From a virus (Duplodnaviria; Caudoviricetes), in IMG/VR virus record IMGVR_UViG_3300031994_000046, positions 34,658-98,657 of that record: a stretch of DNA of 64,000 bases, one strand, 5' to 3'. Position numbers and translations under genes: made by a program. Under the pieces are notes generated by a model. It saw only the letters and a list, made by a program, of their open reading frames with translations, searched no databases and was not told the origin of the DNA. Positions 56,489 to 64,000 of the stretch are shown piece after piece (position 1 is the first letter of the stretch; each line of letters begins with the position of its first letter).

Positions 56489-56602
56489 AATTTTAATTTA
56501 ATTTAATTTGTTAGTTATATAAAATGGTTTATCCTCTAACCAAAAAGGAGTTGTATTGTGGAACAACTTTAAAACATCCATGTTCTTTTTACAGAAACAT
56601 CG

Positions 56603-56673
56603 TGCCCCATGTAGGACTCAAACCCACCTCAGCTGGTTTAGAAGCAGCGGCACAATCTCTATACCAATGGGAC
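56603..56673 (-). tRNA. amber suppressor tRNA (anticodon CUA)
   Basis: 7-bp acceptor, D and T arms fold; anticodon arm GCTGC-TTCTAAA-CCAGC; the Arg-TCT register cannot pair. Confidence 0.8.
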
Positions 56674-56698
56674 AAATATATGTTGGTACAATTATATG

Positions 56699-56770
56699 CA
56701 GGCGGTGAAGGATTCGAACCCTCATGAACGGTTTTGGAGACCGCAATACTAACCATTGTATGAACCACCT
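56699..56770 (-). tRNA. tRNA-Trp(CCA)
   Basis: GCGGT-CTCCAAA-ACCGT. Confidence 0.9.
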
Positions 56771-56774
56771 AAAT

Positions 56775-57007
56775 TAGATGAGTAAATTTGCGAGCTACGG
56801 ACTGAAGAAACCACGGCTAGAAAACGCGGATTGCATTATCTCTTTGAGATTTTACTCTTCTGTTGCGTTGCGCCTTATGAGCTCTCACGATACTCAACTC
56901 CTTTCACTGGGCGAGGACTATTTCTTAGATCCAACCAACATAATAAGAAGAAGTCGACATTTGCTTATTACTTACCCCAGTTCTACTCAGAGGCCTGTAC
57001 TCATCTA
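56775..57007 (-). ncRNA. uncharacterised structured RNA
   Basis: GC-elevated spacer closed by 10 bp terminal inverted repeat TAGATGAGTA/TACTCATCTA. Confidence 0.5.
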
Positions 57008-57101
57008 TTAAAATATTATATTCTTCAAGAACCTCTTTCAGTCTGCTTGGTTGACTTTCACAACTCGTGTTAGATAGTGACTTAAATATTTTATATTTGT
57101 A

Positions 57102-57262
57102 AAAACTTCTTCTGGTCTAGACCATTGGATTACTATTCCAAATCGGTTCCTTGATTCTTCTCCGATAACCAAATATTCGTGCGCCTTCGAATATCTCTAA
57201 AACGGTAACCAGTCCATTTAGAATACATGCGCATATTCAACTAAATGAAACTCAGAAGTTTT
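57102..57262 (-). ncRNA. uncharacterised structured RNA
   Basis: 9 bp terminal stem, internal hairpins with complementary loops. Confidence 0.5.
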
Positions 57263-57265
57263 ATG

Positions 57266-57337
57266 TTGGGATGGGCAGAGTCGGACTGCCATTACCAGGA
57301 CCAAAATCTGGTGTGATAACCGTTATACTACATCCCA
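57266..57337 (-). tRNA. tRNA-Gln(UUG)
   Basis: CCAGA-TTTTGGT-CCTGG, T1-A72. Confidence 0.9.
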
Positions 57338-57372
57338 ATTTAAATGTTTCAATAGTTCAAAGTTTAATTTAA

Positions 57373-57477
57373 AAACCAATCTGTAACAATCTCATAAAGA
57401 TTAACCAAAACAAAAAATCAAACAAACAATGAGAAATAAAAATATGAAGTATCTCTACGATACAACAAGATTGGTTT
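57373..57477 (-). ncRNA. free-standing Y-RNA-like stem module
   Basis: AAACCAATCT-TGTTGTA-TCGTAGAGAT-ACTTC...U-rich...ATCTTTATGA-GATTGTTAC-AGATTGGTTT. Confidence 0.65.
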
Positions 57478-57480
57478 ATG

Positions 57481-57552
57481 TGGAGCCACAGGTAATCGAA
57501 ACCTGATCCCAAGCGTGCAAAGCTTGTATAATAGCCGTTATACGATGACCCC
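57481..57552 (-). tRNA. tRNA-Ala(UGC)
   Basis: G3-U70; CAAGC-TTTGCAC-GCTTG. Confidence 0.9.
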
Positions 57553-57680
57553 AAAACTCACCATTTTTAAGTTGTCACCGAAAATGATGGAAAAACTTCC
57601 TCACTTACGATAGGAAACTAGTTTGAATATATCAATTCAGGGACTAATTACGTTACGTTGAGGCGCGACCTCTTTTGATG

Positions 57681-57752
57681 AGGCGGTACTGAGAATCGAA
57701 CTCAGATCGTCGGGTTACAAAGCCGAAATAATAACCATTATACTAAACCGCC
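57681..57752 (-). tRNA. tRNA-Thr(UGU)
   Basis: TCGGC-TTTGTAA-CCCGA (C31:C39 mismatch), U73. Confidence 0.8.
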
Positions 57753-57762
57753 ATTTCTTTAA

Positions 57763-57860
57763 AATTTCATTGTAACAAATGAAGAAAGTATTTAGTCTTA
57801 AATCTTATTAATCTTATCATTATAATATTGAAGTAACTCTCCTCTTCAACAAATGAAATT
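57763..57860 (-). ncRNA. free-standing Y-RNA-like stem module
   Basis: ATTTCATT-TGTTGAA-GAGGAGAGT-TACTTC...ACTTTCTTC-ATTTGTTAC-AATGAAAT. Confidence 0.65.
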
Positions 57861-57862
57861 AG

Positions 57863-57946
57863 TTGCGGGGGTTGGAATCGAACCAACACAAGCATTTTCT
57901 GTCTCAAGGTTATGAGCCTTGCATCTTACCATTAGACTACCCCACG
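57863..57946 (-). tRNA. initiator-like tRNA-Met(CAU) with long variable region
   Basis: C1:A72 mismatch; CAAGG-CTCATAA-CCTTG; about 17 nt variable region. Confidence 0.8.
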
Positions 57947-57954
57947 ATATTAAT

Positions 57955-58031
57955 TGGTGGGCCCACCAGGGCTTGAACCTGGGACCTACTGATTATGAGT
58001 CAGGTGCTCTGACCAACTGAGCTATAGGCCC
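57955..58031 (-). tRNA. tRNA-Ile2/Met(CAU)
   Basis: GGGCC acceptor, CTCATAA loop, encoded CCA. Confidence 0.9.
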
Positions 58032-58035
58032 AAAA

Positions 58036-58222
58036 ATAATATTGTGCAATAACAACTATGCCTCGCCCTAATTGTGGTTGTACTTCCCACGATAGCTCGC
58101 ATGCGCTGAATAACTAATTTCCAAGAATTTAATTTTTATTCTATCAGAATCATCATTATTGACTCTTGCATAAAAAGATTTATTCCTACCTTAGGAGCAT
58201 CTCCTCTTTTTAACAATATTAT
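58036..58222 (-). ncRNA. uncharacterised structured RNA
   Basis: 10 bp terminal inverted repeat ATAATATTGT/ACAATATTAT. Confidence 0.45.
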
Positions 58223-58223
58223 G

Positions 58224-58297
58224 CGGTGCGTACGGGACTCGGACCCGTGACCCCATGCGTGACAGGCATGTATTCTAACCAACTGAACTAACGCACC
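58224..58297 (-). tRNA. tRNA-Asp(GUC)
   Basis: CATGC-CTGTCAC-GCATG, G73. Confidence 0.92.
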
Positions 58298-58354
58298 AAT
58301 TATATATAATTATAATCAAATATAGTTAATTATAATTAAATATTTCAAAAAAAG

Positions 58355-58485
58355 TTGCCACTGTGGGACTCGAACCCACGACCACGAGCTTAAAAGGCTG
58401 AAGTAACTCTCATCTTCAACAATATTTCTATGTAACTCTCGACAAAAATATAATTACGTGCTCTGTCCAACTGAGCTAAATGGCA
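58355..58485 (-). tRNA. tRNA-Lys(UUU) with 57 nt insert in anticodon stem
   Basis: Removing 58400-58456 restores CGAGC-CTTTTAA-GCTCG. Confidence 0.8.
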
Positions 58486-58488
58486 AAG

Positions 58489-58737
58489 TAGCGGCCATGG
58501 GAGTCGAACCCATTATTTGCAGGTGCTTAACCCCTGCCGTGATCATTTCCTAAACAAGTAACTTAGTTCCTCACTTTATCCCGGGCTTGCTTGACTTTTA
58601 ACCTTGTTTATTTTTTGATGCTGTTAAGTACCCCTTTCAAGATTGCTTATCCGTCGATAAGTAGCGCCCTGATTCTAAGTCTTAACACAGTCCGCCGACA
58701 CATCAAATTGGAAATATATCCGTTTCACTCGAACACT
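58489..58737 (-). ncRNA. tRNA-like RNA with about 180 nt structured D-loop expansion
   Basis: T arm ATGGG-TTCGACT-CCCAT; acceptor AGTGTTC/GGCCGCT; D stem GTGA/TCAC; GCAGG-GGTTAAGCA-CCTGC arm. Confidence 0.55.
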
Positions 58738-58753
58738 GAAGTTTGTTATATTG

Positions 58754-58839
58754 CGTGCCCTGTAGGATTCGAACCTACGATTGGGATTTCTCCACGGCAG
58801 ATTAACAGTCTGCTGCCTTAACCACTCGGCCAAAGACAC
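58754..58839 (-). tRNA. tRNA with GUU (Asn) anticodon on class II, Tyr-like body
   Basis: GCAGA-CTGTTAA-TCTGC, long variable arm, G73. Confidence 0.85.
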
Positions 58840-58844
58840 ATTTG

Positions 58845-58974
58845 CGGCGACGGTTGGAGTCGAACCAACTTTCCTTAATTTGACTGATTAATGCTTTGAA
58901 GTAACTCTAATCTACAACATCATTTCTGAGTAACAGCGAATAAAGTTGTTTATCTACCGTTTAGCTACGTCGCC
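58845..58974 (-). tRNA. tRNA-Asp(GUC)-like with about 56 nt insert in D-loop
   Basis: TTAAT-CAGTCAA-ATTAA (A33), G73; insert about 58898-58953. Confidence 0.7.
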
Positions 58975-58983
58975 ATTAAATTG

Positions 58984-59054
58984 CGGAACACCAAGGAATT
59001 GAACCTCGAACACTCCCAGAACATGGGAGCAGTTTACCGTTAGCCTAATGCTCC
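58984..59054 (-). tRNA. atypical tRNA, GUU (Asn)-like loop
   Basis: CTCCC-ATGTTCT-GGGAG; non-canonical A32/C37/U38; G73. Confidence 0.6.
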
Positions 59055-59148
59055 ATAGAGGTTGTTAATTGAAAGACTGATTTACAGGACAAATACGTTT
59101 CCAAACTTTCCTATCCCCTAGTACCCCATAACTCGGTTCCCTTATAAG

Positions 59149-59289
59149 TGGCGGGCAGGGTTGGATTCGAACCAACGATACATTGTTTAACAGACAATTA
59201 CATTAACCTTTTGAAGTAACTCACGATTCTACACTACCTTACGGAGAACAACGAACGAAGTTTTAAATCTTTTTCTATGTTACCTACCC
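59149..59289 (-). tRNA. tRNA-Asn(GUU) with about 56 nt insert in D-loop
   Basis: ATTGT-CTGTTAA-ACAAT, G73, CCA; insert about 59213-59268. Confidence 0.8.
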
Positions 59290-59296
59290 AAATTTG

Positions 59297-59369
59297 CGCG
59301 CCCTGAAGGAGTCGAACCCTCATCTACTGGGTTTGGAGTCCAGTGCCTTAACCATTAGACCAAAGACGC
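59297..59369 (-). tRNA. tRNA-Trp(CCA)
   Basis: CTCCAAA loop, G73. Confidence 0.9.
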
Positions 59370-59576
59370 ATTAACCGGTATTTTGAGACCGGTAACTCAC
59401 AGATCCTTGCTTTTTCTGGGGATCTGCTCGCGTATACCAGACTGCAACTTTTAATCAACTGACATCTGCTCCTCCGCGATACAAGACCTACTCATCAGTT
59501 TTGACACATATAGGATGCCATCCTATTTCTCGTCATATTGTGCCCGATACTAGTCGGTGTGTTACTCCAACTGGGG

Positions 59577-59649
59577 TAGGGAGACCGGGATTTGAACCCA
59601 GACTATCGAGTGTATAAGACTCCCGTGCTGACCGTTACACTATCTCCCC
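59577..59649 (-). tRNA. tRNA-Ile(UAU)
   Basis: GAGT-CTTATAC-ACTC. Confidence 0.85.
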
Positions 59650-59650
59650 A

Positions 59651-59836
59651 TATATTCTACCCATCTGCGCCTTCCAACGTATGACTGCCTAAACGCATCC
59701 TACGGCCTCGGAAATTATAGCGAATTTGCAACTTCCCATAACTCTGTACCACCATCGTGCCGGATTTTCCTAATGTTCGTCATACCTACTAATTTACTAA
59801 TTAGTACTTCTCTGCACTCCGACCTGATAGAATATA
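59651..59836 (-). ncRNA. uncharacterised structured RNA
   Basis: GC-elevated, 9 bp terminal inverted repeat TATATTCTA/TAGAATATA. Confidence 0.45.
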
Positions 59837-59838
59837 AT

Positions 59839-59913
59839 TGGTTGCGGAAGTGAGATTTGAACTCCACCACTAAGGTTATGAGCCTTGTATGCGACCTACA
59901 CACTGCTTCCGCG
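59839..59913 (-). tRNA. initiator-like tRNA-Met(CAU)
   Basis: C1:A72, CTCATAA loop, CCA. Confidence 0.8.
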
Positions 59914-60040
59914 ATATTTAAATTTAATTTAATAAGAACCTTCCGTTGTCAACCAAGGCTTACCTAAAACTATTCTTCTAAGCTATTTCTCTACCACCTC
60001 GTCTTGGATTCGAACCAAGATTATCGACTTAAATTAAATG

Positions 60041-60116
60041 TGCTCTCACAGGGATTCGAACCCTGACCTCACAGATTAAGAGTCTGGTACGCTGAACCGT
60101 TAAACGCCATGAGAGC
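60041..60116 (-). tRNA. tRNA-Lys(CUU)
   Basis: CAGA-CTCTTAA-TCTG. Confidence 0.9.
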
Positions 60117-60738
60117 AATTAATAAATTCTTTTATATTATTAATTACTTTATATTTATCATCATTATTCATTTTTTTATATTCAGACCAACGTATTCTAA
60201 TTCCTTCCCAACCTTTTTGCTTTAAATATTCATTACGTTCTTTATCATGTTGAATCATATAATCTGAATAATGTTGTTCACCATCAATTTCTACATATTT
60301 CATTAAATCTTCATTATAAAAATCTAATTCATATCTATCAATCTGTTTATGATATTTTAATGGAACATTTTCTTTAATGAATAATTCTTCAAAATATTTT
60401 TCTGGATAACTTTGTTTTGATGAATGATTTAATTTAAAAGGAATTTTATCTGGATTATTATCTAAATATTTTTTTCTTGATTTAGAAATTTTTTGTTTTG
60501 ATTCTTCTGAATGATGTTTACCAATCCAAGATATTTTTTTCTTAGTTTCATCAGACATAATTATTTCTTTTCCTTCCTCTTTTGCTTTTATATATTGATT
60601 TGTTGGTTTTCTAGTTTTATTATAATCTCCCATAAATATTGATGTAATACGATTTTTATTATATTTACATCTTATTTCATGTTGAACCAAAGAATTCTTA
60701 TTTTTACATTCTTTATTACAATATTTACAATTAAACAT
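60100..60738 (-). CDS. free-standing homing-type endonuclease (Zn finger + NUMOD3 + DUF559/Vsr-like)
   Basis: CKYC..H..C; GKHHSEESKQKIS; LDF..VEIDGEQH..D..R..L...GW; true start ATG 60738. Confidence 0.85.
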   Translation of the reverse strand: MFNCKYCNKECKNKNSLVQHEIRCKYNKNRITSIFMGDYNKTRKPTNQYIKAKEEGKEIIMSDETKKKISWIGKHHSEESKQKISKSRKKYLDNNPDKIPFKLNHSSKQSYPEKYFEELFIKENVPLKYHKQIDRYELDFYNEDLMKYVEIDGEQHYSDYMIQHDKERNEYLKQKGWEGIRIRWSEYKKMNNDDKYKVINNIKEFINCSHGV

Positions 60739-60756
60739 ATATTTAAAATATTTTTG

Positions 60757-60827
60757 TGACCTCACTGGGAATCGGACCCAGGTCACATGATTAAAAGTCA
60801 TGGGCTTTACCACTAAGCTATGGGGTC
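60757..60827 (-). tRNA. tRNA-Lys(UUU)
   Basis: CATGA-CTTTTAA-TCATG. Confidence 0.92.
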
Positions 60828-60833
60828 ATTATT

Positions 60834-60968
60834 GTGCCTTCGAAGGAATCGAACCTCCATACTTACTCCTATTAATTATTACTTATCCGCGGTTGTAATA
60901 ATCTTCGGTTAGTAAGACCGCCTTCACAGGGCGGTACGGTTACCAATATACCGTAATAAACCAGCATT
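60834..60968 (-). ncRNA. His(GUG)-anticodon tRNA-like RNA with about 55 nt variable arm
   Basis: CCGCC-CTGTGAA-GGCGG; 6 bp D stem; canonical T arm; C73; weak acceptor. Confidence 0.6.
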
Positions 60969-60983
60969 GTTAAGAATTGTTTG

Positions 60984-61079
60984 TGCCGCCGGTAGGATTC
61001 GAACCTACTTACTGCTAGAGGCCAATACCGAAATTTGATAGAGCAGAATGGTTTTACGGACCATCTCGGTTACGTCGGC
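60984..61079 (-). ncRNA. D-armless Tyr(GUA)-anticodon tRNA-like RNA
   Basis: GCCGACG/CGGCGGC acceptor; ATGGT-CCGTAAA-ACCAT; large variable arm; canonical T arm. Confidence 0.65.
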
Positions 61080-61129
61080 TTGCTATAATTACTATCATCT
61101 TCGTTATAGCAATAATAATAATCCTTCAT
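61070..61129 (-). CDS. Tyr-rich leader mini-ORF
   Basis: MKDYYYCYNEDDSNYSKPT*; stop lies within the Tyr-like RNA. Confidence 0.55.
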   Translation of the reverse strand: MKDYYYCYNEDDSNYSKPT

Positions 61130-61159
61130 AACTCTTAACTTTAAATTTATTAATAATTG

Positions 61160-61229
61160 CGTGATAAACCGGAATTGAACCCTGTTTCTGCCCCACTACA
61201 GAGCTGTCCTAACCTATAGACGATTATCC
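61160..61229 (-). pseudogene. degenerate tRNA-like sequence
   Basis: D and T arm motifs present; anticodon arm and acceptor imperfect. Confidence 0.45.
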
Positions 61230-61323
61230 TTATCGCTATATCTGCCAATATAACGTTTATATTATTTATTGAATTTTCTTACAACTGGCAGGAAATAAGA
61301 TTTTTACAACAAATAACATAAAG

Positions 61324-61413
61324 TGGGTCGGGAGGGACTCGAACCCCCAATGTTTACCCGGAGGGACTAGATTTACAGTCTAGCACAACACCACCAATCG
61401 TTGCTGCCGGCCC
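61324..61413 (-). tRNA. tRNA-Tyr(GUA)
   Basis: CTAGA-CTGTAAA-TCTAG, long variable arm, extended D stem. Confidence 0.88.
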
Positions 61414-61566
61414 AAAAGGTAGAAACTCCCAGTGTTTCTACTAACTGCTAAACGTATTTATACTTAGGATTAGTTTAGATTCAACCAAATCTTTACCATG
61501 ATGGTAAAAATCCCATCTATAAAGGGGATGGTTATATTCCCAATCGCTTTTGAGTTTTACCCTTTT
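61414..61566 (-). ncRNA. uncharacterised structured RNA
   Basis: long imperfect terminal stem AAAAGGTAGAAACTC/GAGTTTTACCCTTTT. Confidence 0.45.
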
Positions 61567-61653
61567 CTATTAAATCTATTTTCACAAACAAATTTAATAA
61601 TCTCTATCTTCCATTTCTTCCCTTAATTCATTACAAAATGTTATAATGAATCG

Positions 61654-61726
61654 CGGTCCCTACGGGATTCGAACCCGTACCGTACGGATCGACAATCCGA
61701 CATTGTTACCGTTCAACCAAGAGACC
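61654..61726 (-). tRNA. tRNA-Asp(GUC)
   Basis: CGGA-TTGTCGA-TCCG, G73. Confidence 0.88.
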
Positions 61727-61863
61727 AAATATGGTTATTATCCAGATACCAAAAAACTGGGAACAAATTTCTCGATTATCCATTCCAACGTCATTGTCTT
61801 TACACTTGATACACTTGGACCAAGAGGAAAAATGATAACCCTTATAAGCATGGCATGCAAGAG

Positions 61864-61936
61864 TGGGGCGGCAGAGAATCGAACTCTGGTTGGTAGGATG
61901 TAAGCCTACTGTCCTGGACCACTAAACGACCTCCCC
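61864..61936 (-). tRNA. tRNA-Val(UAC)
   Basis: GTAGG-CTTACAT-CCTAC. Confidence 0.88.
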
Positions 61937-61944
61937 AATATATG

Positions 61945-62018
61945 TACTCCGGCAGGGATTCGAACCCTGGACCCGATGCTTAAGAGGCAACTACTCTAAC
62001 CAACTGAGCTAACGGAGC
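61945..62018 (-). tRNA. tRNA-Lys(CUU)
   Basis: CTCTTAA loop. Confidence 0.88.
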
Positions 62019-62031
62019 ATTATATTATTTG

Positions 62032-62107
62032 TGCTCCCACAGGGACTCGAACCCTGACCTCACAGATTAAAAGTCTGGAACGCTATACCAATTAACGCCA
62101 TGAGAGC
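62032..62107 (-). tRNA. tRNA-Lys(UUU)
   Basis: near-identical body to 60041-60116 but CTTTTAA loop. Confidence 0.9.
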
Positions 62108-62114
62108 AAATTAG

Positions 62115-62188
62115 TACCCCCTCAGGGATTCGAACCCTGGATCCTCGGCTTAAAAGGCCGCAGCTTTAACCAACTCAGCTAAGAGGGC
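62115..62188 (-). tRNA. tRNA-Lys(UUU)
   Basis: CGGC-CTTTTAA-GCCG. Confidence 0.9.
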
Positions 62189-62271
62189 ATACACAATAAA
62201 TTGTATTAAACTTAATAATAATTTGCGTTTAATTTTGATTTAACGTGCATGCTTCTAATTGGTTAAACTGC

Positions 62272-62331
62272 TTAATACCAACTTCTCTCAGGAAACATAC
62301 ACAACTAACGTTTTCGTTTAAACTGTTTCAT
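62272..62331 (-). promoter_or_regulatory. second amber-containing leader mini-ORF (MKQFKRKR*LCMFPERSWY)
   Basis: Same ATGAAACAGTTT start as the 56488 leader; TAG at 62305-62307; A-rich initiation region. Confidence 0.55.
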
Positions 62332-62373
62332 ATGTTTTAAATTTTATATTTATAGATTATTAATTTCTATTTG

Positions 62374-62445
62374 CGGTCCATGAGGGAGTCGAACCCTCAT
62401 CTTGTGATCGACAGTCACACATTCTAACCGTTATACTAATGGACC
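62374..62445 (-). tRNA. tRNA-Asp(GUC)
   Basis: TGTGA-CTGTCGA-TCACA. Confidence 0.92.
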
Positions 62446-62480
62446 AAATATCTGTCACCTAAGTGATCCAAATTTATATG

Positions 62481-62566
62481 TACCGGGAATGGGGGTCGAA
62501 CCCACACGCCCCTTACGGGGCAACAGATTTTAAGTCTGTCTTGTCTACCGATTCCAACATCCCGGC
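62481..62566 (-). tRNA. tRNA-Leu(UAA)
   Basis: ACAGA-CTTAAAA-TCTGT, long variable arm. Confidence 0.92.
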
Positions 62567-62619
62567 ATCCTTATATTATATATTATAATATAGTAACTTA
62601 ATAAATAAATTACAATATG

Positions 62620-62693
62620 CGGGGACAGAGGGATTCGAACCCACAACCATCGGCTTAACAGGCCGCCGCTCTAACCATTATAGCTATATCCCC
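62620..62693 (-). tRNA. tRNA-Asn(GUU)
   Basis: CGGC-CTGTTAA-GCCG. Confidence 0.9.
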
Positions 62694-62700
62694 ATAATTG

Positions 62701-62772
62701 CGCTCCCGGTAGGGGTCGAACCTACGACCAATAGATTAACAGTCTACTGCTCTACCACTGAGCTACAGGAGC
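62701..62772 (-). tRNA. tRNA-Asn(GUU)
   Basis: GTAGA-CTGTTAA-TCTAT. Confidence 0.92.
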
Positions 62773-62985
62773 AAAATTAAATTTGGAGGACCGTTCTGTG
62801 CTGACCAGAATATTCAGTATTCGTAAATGGATTTACATTTCAACGACATACGAAGCATGGAGTCTTTCACCATTTGCCGAGCCGACCTCTTAACGACACC
62901 TATGGGAAATAGGAAACGAATCGTAAATATAACAGTTTTATTTCAACATCCCAAGTTTTTTATTTTCCATTATATTAACCATTTG

Positions 62986-63058
62986 TGGAGCTGAAGAGAA
63001 TCGAACTCTCCCACAAACCTTGCAAAGGTCCATCGCCTGCCTTGGAACATGCAACCCC
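62986..63058 (-). tRNA. tRNA-Ala(UGC), atypical D arm
   Basis: G3-U70; GGACC-TTTGCAA-GGTTT. Confidence 0.8.
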
Positions 63059-63200
63059 AAATAGCTTCAACGAAAATAGTATTCCACATCGGCTAATACT
63101 TATTTCAATCTGCTCCTGTGGTATTCTCTCAGCCGAAATTATGAATGTTATTCCAACTTATCAAGTAGTTTTTCAACTTGCCTCACCGGCATCCATATTG

Positions 63201-63274
63201 AGCTCCGTACCGGACTCGAACCGATAACATCCGCATTACAAGTGCGGCGCTCTACCAATTAAAGCTAACAGAGC
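63201..63274 (-). tRNA. tRNA-Thr(UGU)
   Basis: CCGCA-CTTGTAA-TGCGG. Confidence 0.92.
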
Positions 63275-63657
63275 AAATAAAAATGGTAGTGCTTTGGACA
63301 AGCAGTCTAATCTCTCGAACTTAATCTACAAAAGATAGAGCCTGATATATTTCAATCATATTTTTCTTTGGCAACTACCACATATTTCTTAATGATATGG
63401 AAATTCTGTTATAAAGGCAATTTTTAATCTCCCACTATCAGAGAACCTTTATATATATTTACTGAACTATTTCGCTGAGGTGCTTGGCATCTCATTGAAA
63501 GGGGTTTTCCACCACTCCTCTTCCAAATCAGTTTTGTTTAATTGTAGGCGGGCTTCTCACCACTTAATTGCGTCTCAACCATTACTGGAGTGTCCTTCTT
63601 GTTCTCTTAATGAGTGTGCTAGACGACTACAATTATTTTTATATTTATTGTACCAAC

Positions 63658-63669
63658 ATGTCAAAGAAC
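63658..63669 (-). promoter_or_regulatory. boxA-like antitermination site
   Basis: GTTCTTTGACAT about 65 nt downstream of promoter 63734-63761 at the head of the tRNA transcript. Confidence 0.5.
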
Positions 63670-63733
63670 TCAGATTCAAAAACTCTAAATAATATCTTTT
63701 CAAATATAATTAGAATTTGAATATTATATTAAT

Positions 63734-63761
63734 AATATAGTTCTTTAAAAAATAATTTCAA
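63734..63761 (-). promoter_or_regulatory. TTGAAA-N16-TATATT promoter driving tRNA cluster
   Basis: matches recurring motif. Confidence 0.6.
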
Positions 63762-63815
63762 ATTTCTAAGAAAAAATTTATAAAGAATTTCAACTATATA
63801 AATTAACATAATTTG

Positions 63816-63895
63816 TACCTCTACTGGGATTCGAACCCAGACCCAATTAAGGAGGGATTTTAAGTCCCCTGCGTAGACCGTTCCGCCATAGAGGC
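63816..63895 (-). tRNA. tRNA-Leu(UAA)
   Basis: GGGGA-CTTAAAA-TCCCT. Confidence 0.9.
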
Positions 63896-64000
63896 ATATA
63901 GTAAAAATCCGGTACTATTCTCCTATAATGTTCATTTAAGTGTGAATCCTTGCTCTACATGTGGTGGGTCACTTTACCCTGATTTTCAAATTCCCATGGA

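What the first reader, a model, noticed from the sequence alone, without database searches (positions are those of the whole stretch)
57373..59289. Conserved Y-RNA-like stem module, both free-standing and grafted (circularly permuted) into three tRNAs
Seen: five copies of one module. One strand reads TGT(T)G(A/T)A-[9-10 nt]-(T)ACTTC and the other [complement]-N-GTT(A/C)(C/T). Two copies are free-standing with a terminal stem (57373-57477 with a U-rich loop; 57763-57860). In three copies the strand order is swapped, the former ends are closed by a GNRA tetraloop (ATA-GAAA-TAT, TCA-GAAA-TGA, CC-GTAA-GG), and the 56-57 nt unit sits inside tRNA-Lys(UUU) (anticodon stem, 58400-58456), tRNA-Asp-like (D-loop, about 58898-58953) and tRNA-Asn (D-loop, about 59213-59268). 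The core helix covaries: GAGGAGAGT/ACTTTCTTC, TCGTAGAGAT/ATCTTTATGA, GATGAGAGT/ATTTTTGTC, GATTAGAGT/ACTTTATTC. From memory this resembles the Ro60(TROVE)-binding stem of bacterial YrlA Y RNAs, which are tRNA mimics; this is not verified. Inference: tRNAs carrying a protein-docking handle, such as Ro60-tethered decoys or repair substrates for anticodon nucleases, or a new class of small tRNA intron.
Basis: partly seen in the sequence, partly recalled or inferred. Interest (0 to 1): 0.92.

Follow-up and report, generated by a model that had tools for sequence, protein, structure and literature searches.

The report
Ro60-type Y-RNA stem grafted into tRNAs
A large gut phage carries five copies of one folded RNA handle in its tRNA gene row, three of them built into otherwise normal tRNAs; the same handle sits beside Ro60 protein genes in other phages and bacteria, so these are most likely tRNA-shaped partner RNAs of Ro60, not ordinary tRNAs.

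Summary
Five copies of one about 50-nt module lie on the minus strand, co-oriented with at least 26 tRNA genes. Two are free-standing hairpin RNAs. Three are circularly permuted, loop-capped and set inside tRNA-Lys(UUU), an Asp-like tRNA and tRNA-Asn.

More than 55 distinct copies from related IMG/VR phage contigs show strong covariation: 16 of 20 pairs change on both sides, with 0 of 500 shuffles as good.

Covariance models built only from tRNA-array copies find the same module immediately next to TROVE/Ro60 genes, always on the gene's strand. This holds in distant phages and in Acidobacteriota, Chloroflexota, Neisseriaceae and Bacteroidota. In three bacterial loci the module encloses a sub-threshold Rfam YrlA match. 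The contigs of the window's closest relatives encode TROVE and RtcB.

However, the window copies do not reach the Rfam YrlA threshold, and Ro60 binding is inferred, not shown.

Splicing is not excluded. Deleting the module in silico restores canonical tRNAs, and RtcB is present. But no fixed cut site and no splicing endonuclease were found.

Other agents of this scan reached the same reading on other genomes. I tested it independently here.

Verdict: a new variant of a known kind.

The parts
57374..57476 (-). Free-standing module RNA 1. It has a 9-bp terminal helix A, a bulged U, a 2-bp GU/AC step, an internal loop UGUA / GAUUGUU, a 10-bp helix B, then ACUUCA. A U-rich loop (UUGUUUGUUUGAUUUUUU) closes helix B.
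   Evidence: R2 67.0 bits, E 3e-12. Orthologues in L010, L148, L149, L123, L133, L141 and L142 show pair-preserving changes and a conserved U-rich loop.
57763..57860 (-). Free-standing module RNA 2. Helix A is AAUUUCAUU/AAUGAAAUU and helix B is GAGGAGAGU/ACUUUCUUC. A 40-nt AU-rich loop follows UACUUCA.
   Evidence: R2 70.3 bits, E 5e-13. The L010 orthologue shows a compensatory U-A to A-U change in helix B and a different, longer loop.
58354..58486 (-). tRNA-Lys(UUU) body carrying the module (58399-58449) plus a 7-nt 5' linker between nt 28 and 29, on the 5' strand of the anticodon stem. Helix A is capped by GAAA.
   Evidence: R1 65 bits. Deleting 57 nt gives one unique best tRNA-Lys at 126% of ARAGORN's default stringency.
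58845..58974 (-). Asp-like tRNA (anticodon GUC, but A33 instead of U33) carrying the module (58897-58946) in the D-loop after G18G19. Helix A is capped by GAAA.
   Evidence: The Rfam tRNA model scores 45.4 bits with a 59-nt insertion. R1 scores 75.8 bits. The loop CAGUCAA is conserved in L010, L140, L146 and L149.
59160..59293 (-). tRNA-Asn(GUU) body carrying a diverged module (59212-59261; the 2-bp step is AG/CU and helix B has two bulges) in the D-loop before G18G19. Helix A is capped by GUAA.
   Evidence: R1 31.7 bits, E 2e-5, although this copy was not used to build the model. The Rfam tRNA model makes a local match at 59160-59214. In silico deletion gives tRNA-Asn at 108% stringency.

Best explanation
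The module is the stem-bulge-stem docking part of Ro60 (TROVE)-associated Y RNAs. It is present five times in this phage's tRNA array.

Fold, shown by covariation: helix A, one bulged U, a 2-bp step, an asymmetric internal loop (5'-UGWA-3' opposite 5'-GNNKUU-3'), a 9-10 bp helix B with the invariant pairs A-U, G.U, A-U, G-C, and a single-stranded UACUUCA. Whatever the RNA carries is always attached at the helix B end.

The two free-standing copies are small Y RNAs. One has a conserved U-rich loop.

In the three grafted copies helix A is capped and helix B opens into a complete tRNA body. That body keeps its acceptor end and anticodon loop, which the known YrlA RNAs lack.

Inferred steps:
- The array is transcribed with the tRNAs.
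- The arm stays in the mature RNA.
- The phage's own Ro60, encoded elsewhere in the genome, binds the arm. The tRNA body then acts as the effector-binding half, tethering Ro60 to proteins that recognise specific tRNAs.
- Ro60 may work together with the phage RtcB ligase or host PNPase.
- A plausible purpose is tRNA surveillance or repair, or decoying of anticodon nucleases. That purpose is the least certain step.
For: Fold:
- Covariation counts support the fold in both forms.
- The 2-bp step changes among GU/AC, GC/GC, AG/CU and GG/CC.

Distribution:
- In five related phage records every true copy lies in the tRNA arrays on one strand. The reversed-pattern control found 0. The one hit outside an array (G008:159816) lies in a small ORF, has no partner strand, and is a chance match.

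Link to Ro60:
- R2 hits start 19-24 nt after the TROVE stop in L170, L172 and L173, each followed by a second copy, and about 1.8 kb upstream of TROVE in L171. L170 and L172 have no tRNA array nearby.
- In 80 TROVE loci from MAG and genome records (top hits look like binned phage contigs, the rest are Acidobacteriota and other bacterial chromosomes), 24 of 24 R2 hits are on the TROVE strand, most within 750 nt of the gene. The hits keep UGGUGAAGA...GUUACUUC...UUGUUCC.
- R2 hits enclose YrlA matches of 36-39 bits (E 4e-5 to 2e-4) in L204, L229 and L201.
- L171 has four tandem module-stem RNAs with cores ordered T arm, closed acceptor stem, D arm, directly upstream of TROVE. Two of them match YrlA below threshold.
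- The capped, grafted form also follows TROVE genes, 11 of 11 on the gene strand. L173 5501-5629 is a tRNA-like gene with a CCA end and the module in its anticodon loop.
- TROVE is encoded on the contigs that hold L140/L148 and L149/L151, and in G002 and G008.
- RtcB is encoded in G002, G003, G007 and G008.

Signs that the grafted tRNAs do not decode:
- A33 is conserved in the Asp-like chimera.
- The window has uninterrupted Lys(UUU), Asp and Asn genes as well.

Established knowledge:
- Y RNAs are a 5'-3' stem with a bulge carrying a CGAA-type motif plus an effector module, and they are encoded beside Ro60 (PMC4201824; doi 10.1101/312249; PMC12135203).
Against: - No binding data exist; the link to Ro60 is by gene neighbourhood and by nesting with weak YrlA matches.
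- The window copies fail the Rfam YrlA gathering score. No Rfam Y-RNA family reached E 5 in the tRNA-array part searched that permissively (56500-64000), and none reached gathering score anywhere in the window.
- The loop motif is UGAA/UGUA, not the published CGAA / GNCGAA.
- In the window's own clade the TROVE gene is far from the modules (G002: TROVE at 130 kb, modules at 329-346 kb), and no module lies within 4 kb of those TROVE genes.
- G003 (83% complete, 10 modules) shows no TROVE gene.
- Deleting the module restores canonical tRNAs with exactly 5-bp anticodon stems. That is also what an intron would show.
Confidence: 0.68

Rival explanations
1. The grafted copies are a new kind of protein-dependent tRNA intron, and the clamp-around-tRNA copies in relatives are permuted tRNA genes. 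The module marks the RNA for cutting at the tRNA junction, and the phage RtcB joins the ends. This would be a functional analogue of the archaeal bulge-helix-bulge system.
For: - In silico excision gives canonical tRNAs at 108-126% of ARAGORN's default stringency. For the Lys family there is one unique solution, with the 3' exon starting right after UACUUC.
- In relatives the module flanks circularly permuted tRNAs that encode N73-CCA, a linker and the 5' acceptor strand. Re-joining them gives valid tRNAs at 108-114%. CUUUC/GAAAG covaries to CUUCC/GGAAG in the acceptor stem.
- RtcB is encoded in four related records.
- In the unspliced Lys RNA the anticodon stem is split 2 bp + 3 bp, which looks unstable.
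Against: - There is no fixed cut site. The 3' exon starts 0 nt after UACUUC in some tRNAs and 4-13 nt after it in others. The 5' linker is 7-19 nt in the grafted tRNAs and 3-9 nt in the permuted genes.
- No tRNA-splicing endonuclease domain was found, and no known self-cleaving ribozyme matches.
- The same module forms the retained stem of YrlA-like RNAs whose acceptor stem is closed, so they cannot become tRNAs.
- Short-loop copies would yield only tiny circles.
- A33 in the Asp-like copy, and G33 or 9-nt anticodon loops in several permuted ones, argue against a decoding role.
Confidence: 0.17
2. The module is a selfish small mobile element that has inserted into tRNA genes and spacers. The interrupted tRNAs are pseudogenes with no function of their own.
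For: - There are many insertion sites: anticodon stem 28/29 and 29/30, both variable pockets of the D-loop, 65/66-67/68, and the anticodon loop. There are also copies in spacers.
- Both circular permutations exist, as expected if a circular intermediate re-inserted.
- Uninterrupted isoacceptors are present.
Against: - Each chimera is kept at the same place in syntenic relatives (window, L010, L140, L146, L149), with pair-preserving changes in both the module and the tRNA body.
- Flanking tRNA parts stay canonical.
- No terminal repeats or target duplications were seen.
- The module's constant position beside TROVE genes in bacterial chromosomes points to a cellular function.
Confidence: 0.08
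3. The module is a processing signal for a host double-strand-specific or structure-specific RNase, like the RNase III sites of T7. It separates tRNAs from the long array transcript.
For: Free-standing copies sit in tRNA spacers within a few nucleotides of tRNA ends. In L151 one copy clamps a whole tRNA-Gly that begins right after UACUUCA.
Against: It does not explain copies inside tRNAs, where a cut would destroy the tRNA. It does not explain the copies beside TROVE genes away from any tRNA array.
Confidence: 0.05

Closest known systems
YrlA-type bacterial and phage Y RNAs (Rfam RF02553; Chen et al. 2014, PMC4201824; Wang et al. 2018, doi 10.1101/312249)
   Same: - A modular RNA: a long stem with a bulge or internal loop (the Ro60/Rsr-binding half) joined to a tRNA-shaped half.
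- Encoded beside TROVE genes on the same strand.
- Often found in genomes that also carry RtcB.
- The module found here encloses weak YrlA matches in three bacterial loci.
   Different: - YrlA has a closed acceptor stem, no CCA end and no anticodon loop.
- The window's three chimeras are complete tRNAs with free acceptor ends and intact anticodon loops. The stem leaves sideways from the anticodon stem or the D-loop, in circularly permuted order.
- They lie in a tRNA array, not next to the TROVE gene.
- The loop motif is UGWA, not CGAA.
- The Rfam gathering score is not reached.
Short Y RNAs without a tRNA-like domain (Salmonella YrlB, D. radiodurans Yrn1, Thermus phage phiLo Yrl1/Yrl2; PMC4201824, PMC12135203)
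   Same: The two free-standing copies are 98-105 nt RNAs with a 5'-3' stem, a bulge and a large loop. One loop is pyrimidine-rich, like the single-stranded part that contacts PNPase in the Ro60-Y RNA-PNPase complex.
   Different: There is no sequence match to those RNAs. PNPase or Ro60 binding was not tested. They are encoded among tRNAs.
Archaeal and algal disrupted tRNA genes (bulge-helix-bulge introns at non-canonical positions; permuted tRNA genes of Cyanidioschyzon merolae; from established knowledge)
   Same: One conserved RNA structure occurs inside tRNAs at several positions and around circularly permuted tRNAs. An RtcB ligase is available.
   Different: The structure is not a bulge-helix-bulge, no EndA-type endonuclease was found, and the splice points would not sit at a fixed place in the structure.

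Membership tests
Rfam YrlA (RF02553) | Score at or above the curated gathering score (69 bits) | tested here: not met
   The only window match is 20.4 bits (58436-58540), on tRNA-like sequence rather than the module. TROVE-adjacent relatives that carry the module reach 36-39 bits; other YrlA matches in those loci, away from the module, reach 45-55 bits. All are below 69.
Y RNAs in the broad sense (Ro60-associated ncRNAs) | Stem formed by the two ends with a bulge or internal loop carrying a CGAA-type motif (stem-bulge-stem) | tested here: inconclusive
   The stem-bulge-stem fold is shown by covariation. The loop reads UGAA/UGUA (bacterial copies GGUGAAG), one base away from CGAA / GNCGAA (motif from PMC4201824 and PMC12135203).
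Y RNAs in the broad sense (Ro60-associated ncRNAs) | Encoded next to and co-oriented with a Ro60/TROVE gene | tested here: inconclusive
   Not met in the window, which has no TROVE gene in its 64 kb, nor in its clade, where the TROVE gene lies far from the modules. Met for homologous modules in other phages and bacteria: 7 of 7, 24 of 24 and 11 of 11 hits on the gene strand.
Y RNAs in the broad sense (Ro60-associated ncRNAs) | Physical binding by Ro60/Rsr | not testable with these tools
   Needs a pull-down or gel-shift assay with the phage TROVE protein (for example the ORF at L161:4001-5446).
YrlA-type tRNA mimic | tRNA-like core with T arm, closed acceptor-like stem and D arm; no free CCA end and no anticodon loop | tested here: not met
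   The window chimeras have open acceptor stems and 7-nt anticodon loops. The YrlA wiring does occur with the same module in relatives (L151:131-270, L143, L145, L171).
Protein-spliced tRNA introns (bulge-helix-bulge / EndA / RtcB) | Bulge-helix-bulge motif at the exon-intron borders and a splicing endonuclease | tested here: not met
   There are no 3-nt bulges separated by 4 bp. The borders lie 0-13 nt (3' side) and 7-19 nt (5' side) from helix B. PF01974 is absent from G001-G003 at E<=1. RtcB is present.
Known self-cleaving ribozymes (hammerhead, twister, pistol, hatchet, HDV-like) | Match to the Rfam model | tested here: not met
   No such family matches at E<=5 in 56500-64000 or at E<=10 in 58340-59300.

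The most novel reading that the evidence does not exclude
The grafted modules are true introns, and in relatives the joints of permuted tRNA genes. They would be removed by an unknown nuclease and sealed by the phage RtcB, perhaps with Ro60 holding the RNA. That would be the first protein-dependent tRNA splicing and tRNA circular-permutation system in bacterial viruses.
Probability: 0.15. Interest if true: 0.95.

Novelty: new variant of a known kind. Interest (0 to 1): 0.66.

Why it matters
Y RNAs are known as Ro60 partners whose second half binds an effector, and the bacterial YrlA class only imitates part of a tRNA. Here the Ro60-type stem is attached to complete tRNAs with real anticodons and free acceptor ends, at several different positions, and in many copies per phage genome.

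If the arm is retained, these RNAs could be charged, modified or attacked like tRNAs while carrying Ro60. That gives a concrete way to ask what the tRNA-like half of bacterial Y RNAs is for. It also lets one ask whether Ro60 and RtcB form a tRNA repair or decoy system in the conflict between phages and tRNA-cutting host defences.

The models built here also recognise a Ro60-adjacent RNA stem in several bacterial phyla that the current Rfam YrlA model does not call at its threshold.

Tried and rejected
- Whole-genome search: no genome is held for this window.
- GenBank phages: only tRNA-level similarity, no close relative.
- A first loose DNA pattern gave mostly chance hits. A tighter one gave 32 loci.
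- Known ribozymes, the vertebrate Y RNA model and YrlA: no usable match in the window or in nine related loci.
- Splicing endonuclease PF01974: absent.
- A fixed cut site after UACUUC fits the Lys family and several others. It fails for the Thr, Lys and Asn chimeras of L124/L135, the Gly(UCC) chimeras and the Phe chimera.
- An apparent module copy near RtcB in G008 lies in a small ORF without a partner strand: a chance match.
- Hand inspection for kink-turn, loop E/sarcin-ricin and hammerhead cores in the internal loop found no fit (reasoning only).
- The alternative hairpin UGAAG/CUUCA, seen in one minimum-energy fold, does not covary and clashes with helix B.
- Module copies within 4 kb of the TROVE genes of the window's own clade: none.
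- Literature searches for permuted tRNA genes or tRNA introns in large phages found nothing that describes this.
Full report
**What is in the window.**
The region 56.6-63.9 kb is a minus-strand array of at least 26 tRNA genes.

Its parts, in RNA sense, are:
- helix A;
- one bulged U;
- a 2-bp step (GU/AC, or AG/CU in the Asn copy);
- an internal loop, 5'-UGWA-3' opposite 5'-GNNKUU-3';
- helix B of 9-10 bp, ending in the invariant pairs A-U, G.U, A-U, G-C;
- a single-stranded UACUUCA.

In the two free-standing copies (57374-57476 and 57763-57860) helix A is a 9-bp terminal stem and helix B is closed by a 40-45 nt loop.

In the three grafted copies helix A is only 2-3 bp and is capped by GAAA, GAAA or GUAA. 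Helix B opens into a tRNA:
- Lys(UUU), between nt 28 and 29 of the anticodon stem;
- an Asp-like tRNA, in the D-loop after G18G19;
- Asn(GUU), in the D-loop before G18G19.

Models built later find exactly these five copies and no others in the 64 kb. They include the Asn copy, which was not used for training (E 2e-5).

**Is it more than chance?**
A pattern scan of IMG/VR gave 32 loci from large phage contigs of 38-435 kb, with several copies each. L010 is syntenic with the window and has all five copies, with pair-preserving and compensatory changes. A scripted scan gave 58 distinct copies.

On 18 capped copies, 96% of cells pair against 80% in shuffles, and 7 of 14 pairs change on both sides. 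On 22 free-standing copies, 94.8% pair against 68.7%, 16 of 20 pairs change on both sides, and 0 of 500 shuffles do as well; slid controls pair at 44-52%. The 2-bp step covaries among GU/AC, GC/GC, AG/CU and GG/CC.

In five related phage records every true copy lies in the tRNA arrays on the tRNA strand. The reversed-pattern control found none. The one hit outside an array proved to be a chance match inside a small ORF.

**Three wirings.**
In relatives the module appears in three arrangements:
- inside tRNAs, as in the window;
- as a short hairpin RNA between tRNAs;
- as a clamp whose 'loop' is a whole tRNA (L151:358-480), a circularly permuted tRNA with an encoded N73-CCA and a linker, or a core ordered T arm, closed acceptor stem, D arm.

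The cargo is always joined at the helix B / UACUUCA end.

**First idea: a splice signal.**
The mix of 'intron' and 'permuted gene' recalled the archaeal bulge-helix-bulge system.

Deleting the module in silico restores canonical tRNAs at 108-126% of ARAGORN's default stringency. The Lys family has a unique solution that starts the 3' exon right after UACUUC. Re-joining the permuted genes also gives valid tRNAs. RtcB is encoded in four related records.

Several things count against it:
- The would-be splice points are not fixed. They lie 0 nt or 4-13 nt after UACUUC, and the 5' linker is 7-19 nt in the grafted tRNAs and 3-9 nt in the permuted genes.
- No EndA domain was found.
- No known ribozyme matches.
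- Several cargos have non-decoding features: A33 conserved in the Asp-like chimera, and G33 or 9-nt anticodon loops in others.

**The Ro60 link.**
TROVE (Ro60) genes are present in G002 and G008 and on the contigs that hold L140/L148 and L149/L151, the window's closest relatives. The window itself has none. In this clade the TROVE gene is far from the modules.

Earlier notes of this scan on other genomes claimed that the arm travels with Ro60 genes. I tested that claim with my own models.

- **More distant phages (TROVE 58-61% identical).** The free-standing model R2 hits 19-24 nt after the TROVE stop, on the same strand, followed by a second copy (L170, L172, L173). In L171 it hits about 1.8 kb upstream. 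L170 and L172 have no tRNA array nearby.
- **L171.** Four tandem module-stem RNAs with T arm, closed acceptor and D arm cores lie directly before TROVE. Two of them match Rfam YrlA below threshold (36-38 bits, E about 1e-4).
- **80 TROVE loci from MAG and genome records** (top hits look like binned phage contigs; the rest include Acidobacteriota, Chloroflexota, Neisseriaceae and Bacteroidota). 24 of 24 R2 hits are on the TROVE strand and most lie within 750 nt of the gene. They keep UGGUGAAGA...GUUACUUC...UUGUUCC.
- **L204, L229 and L201.** The R2 hit encloses a YrlA match (E 4e-5 to 2e-4). None reaches the Rfam gathering score.
- **The capped, grafted form R1.** It also hits right after TROVE genes, 11 of 11 on the gene strand. 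L173 5501-5629 is a tRNA-like gene with a CCA end and the module in its anticodon loop, lying between two free-standing copies.

**Reading.**
Published work describes Y RNAs as a 5'-3' stem with a bulge carrying a CGAA-type motif that Ro60 binds, joined to an effector-binding half. In YrlA that half is a tRNA mimic without a CCA end or anticodon loop. Y RNAs are encoded beside Ro60 and often near RtcB (PMC4201824; doi 10.1101/312249; PMC12135203; PMC7824862).

The module fits that description in shape and in genomic company, with UGWA in place of CGAA. I therefore read the two free-standing copies as small Y RNAs and the three grafted copies as tRNA-bodied Y RNAs whose arm is retained.

Shown: the copies, the fold, the family, and the neighbourhood to TROVE in other genomes.

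Inferred: Ro60 binding, retention of the arm, and any role in tRNA repair or as a decoy. The window also holds uninterrupted Lys(UUU), Asp and Asn genes, so the chimeras are not needed for decoding.

**What is new.**
Known YrlA RNAs imitate part of a tRNA. Here the stem is attached, in circularly permuted order, to whole tRNAs at several positions. The copies are multiple and sit in the tRNA array rather than beside the Ro60 gene. I found no paper describing this. Other agents of this scan reported the same kind of chimera in other phage genomes.

**Verdict.**
Splicing remains a live minority alternative. This is a new variant of a known kind.

Noticed in passing
L173:6067-6127 (+): A Pistol self-cleaving ribozyme match (RF02679, 57.9 bits, gathering score 34.5) lies about 670 nt downstream of a phage TROVE gene and its cluster of module RNAs.
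   Followed up: no
L196:2296-2379 (+): An isolated match to bacterial 23S rRNA positions 1077-1160 (59.9 bits) lies just upstream of a module copy (2601-2682) and a TROVE gene. It may be a mimic of an rRNA fragment.
   Followed up: no
L170:2593-3117 and L188:1435-1959 (+): tmRNA-like genes (about 52 bits) sit about 900-1050 nt upstream of TROVE genes that are followed by module RNAs.
   Followed up: no
window 58845-58974 (-): The Asp-like chimera has A33 instead of the near-universal U33 (loop CAGUCAA). This is conserved in L010, L140, L146 and L149; the L150 homologue reads AUGUAAA (Tyr-type anticodon).
   Followed up: partly
window 57374-57476 (-) and orthologues in L010, L123, L133, L141, L142, L148, L149: The loop of free-standing copy 1 keeps the U-rich string UUGUUUGUUUGAUUUUU across relatives while its flanks vary. 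It may be a single-strand binding site.
   Followed up: no
L171:3190-3800 (+): Four tandem RNAs with the module as stem and cores ordered T arm, closed acceptor stem, D arm lie directly upstream of a TROVE gene in a 348 kb phage. One carries an Asn-type anticodon-like hairpin (CUGUUAA).
   Followed up: partly
L139:8564-8690, L141:7944-8068, L135:3600-3723, L143:208-337; L146:438-566, L137:1302-1431, L151:3406-3529: In these loci the module clamps circularly permuted tRNA-like genes (3' acceptor strand, N73-CCA, linker, 5' acceptor strand ... T arm). The Rfam tRNA model matches only its positions 6-65.
   Followed up: partly
window 58489-58737 (-): An RNA of about 250 nt ends in a canonical T arm and acceptor strand, between the Lys chimera and a class II Asn-anticodon tRNA. 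It is conserved in L010. It was already listed as a separate finding of this scan.
   Followed up: no
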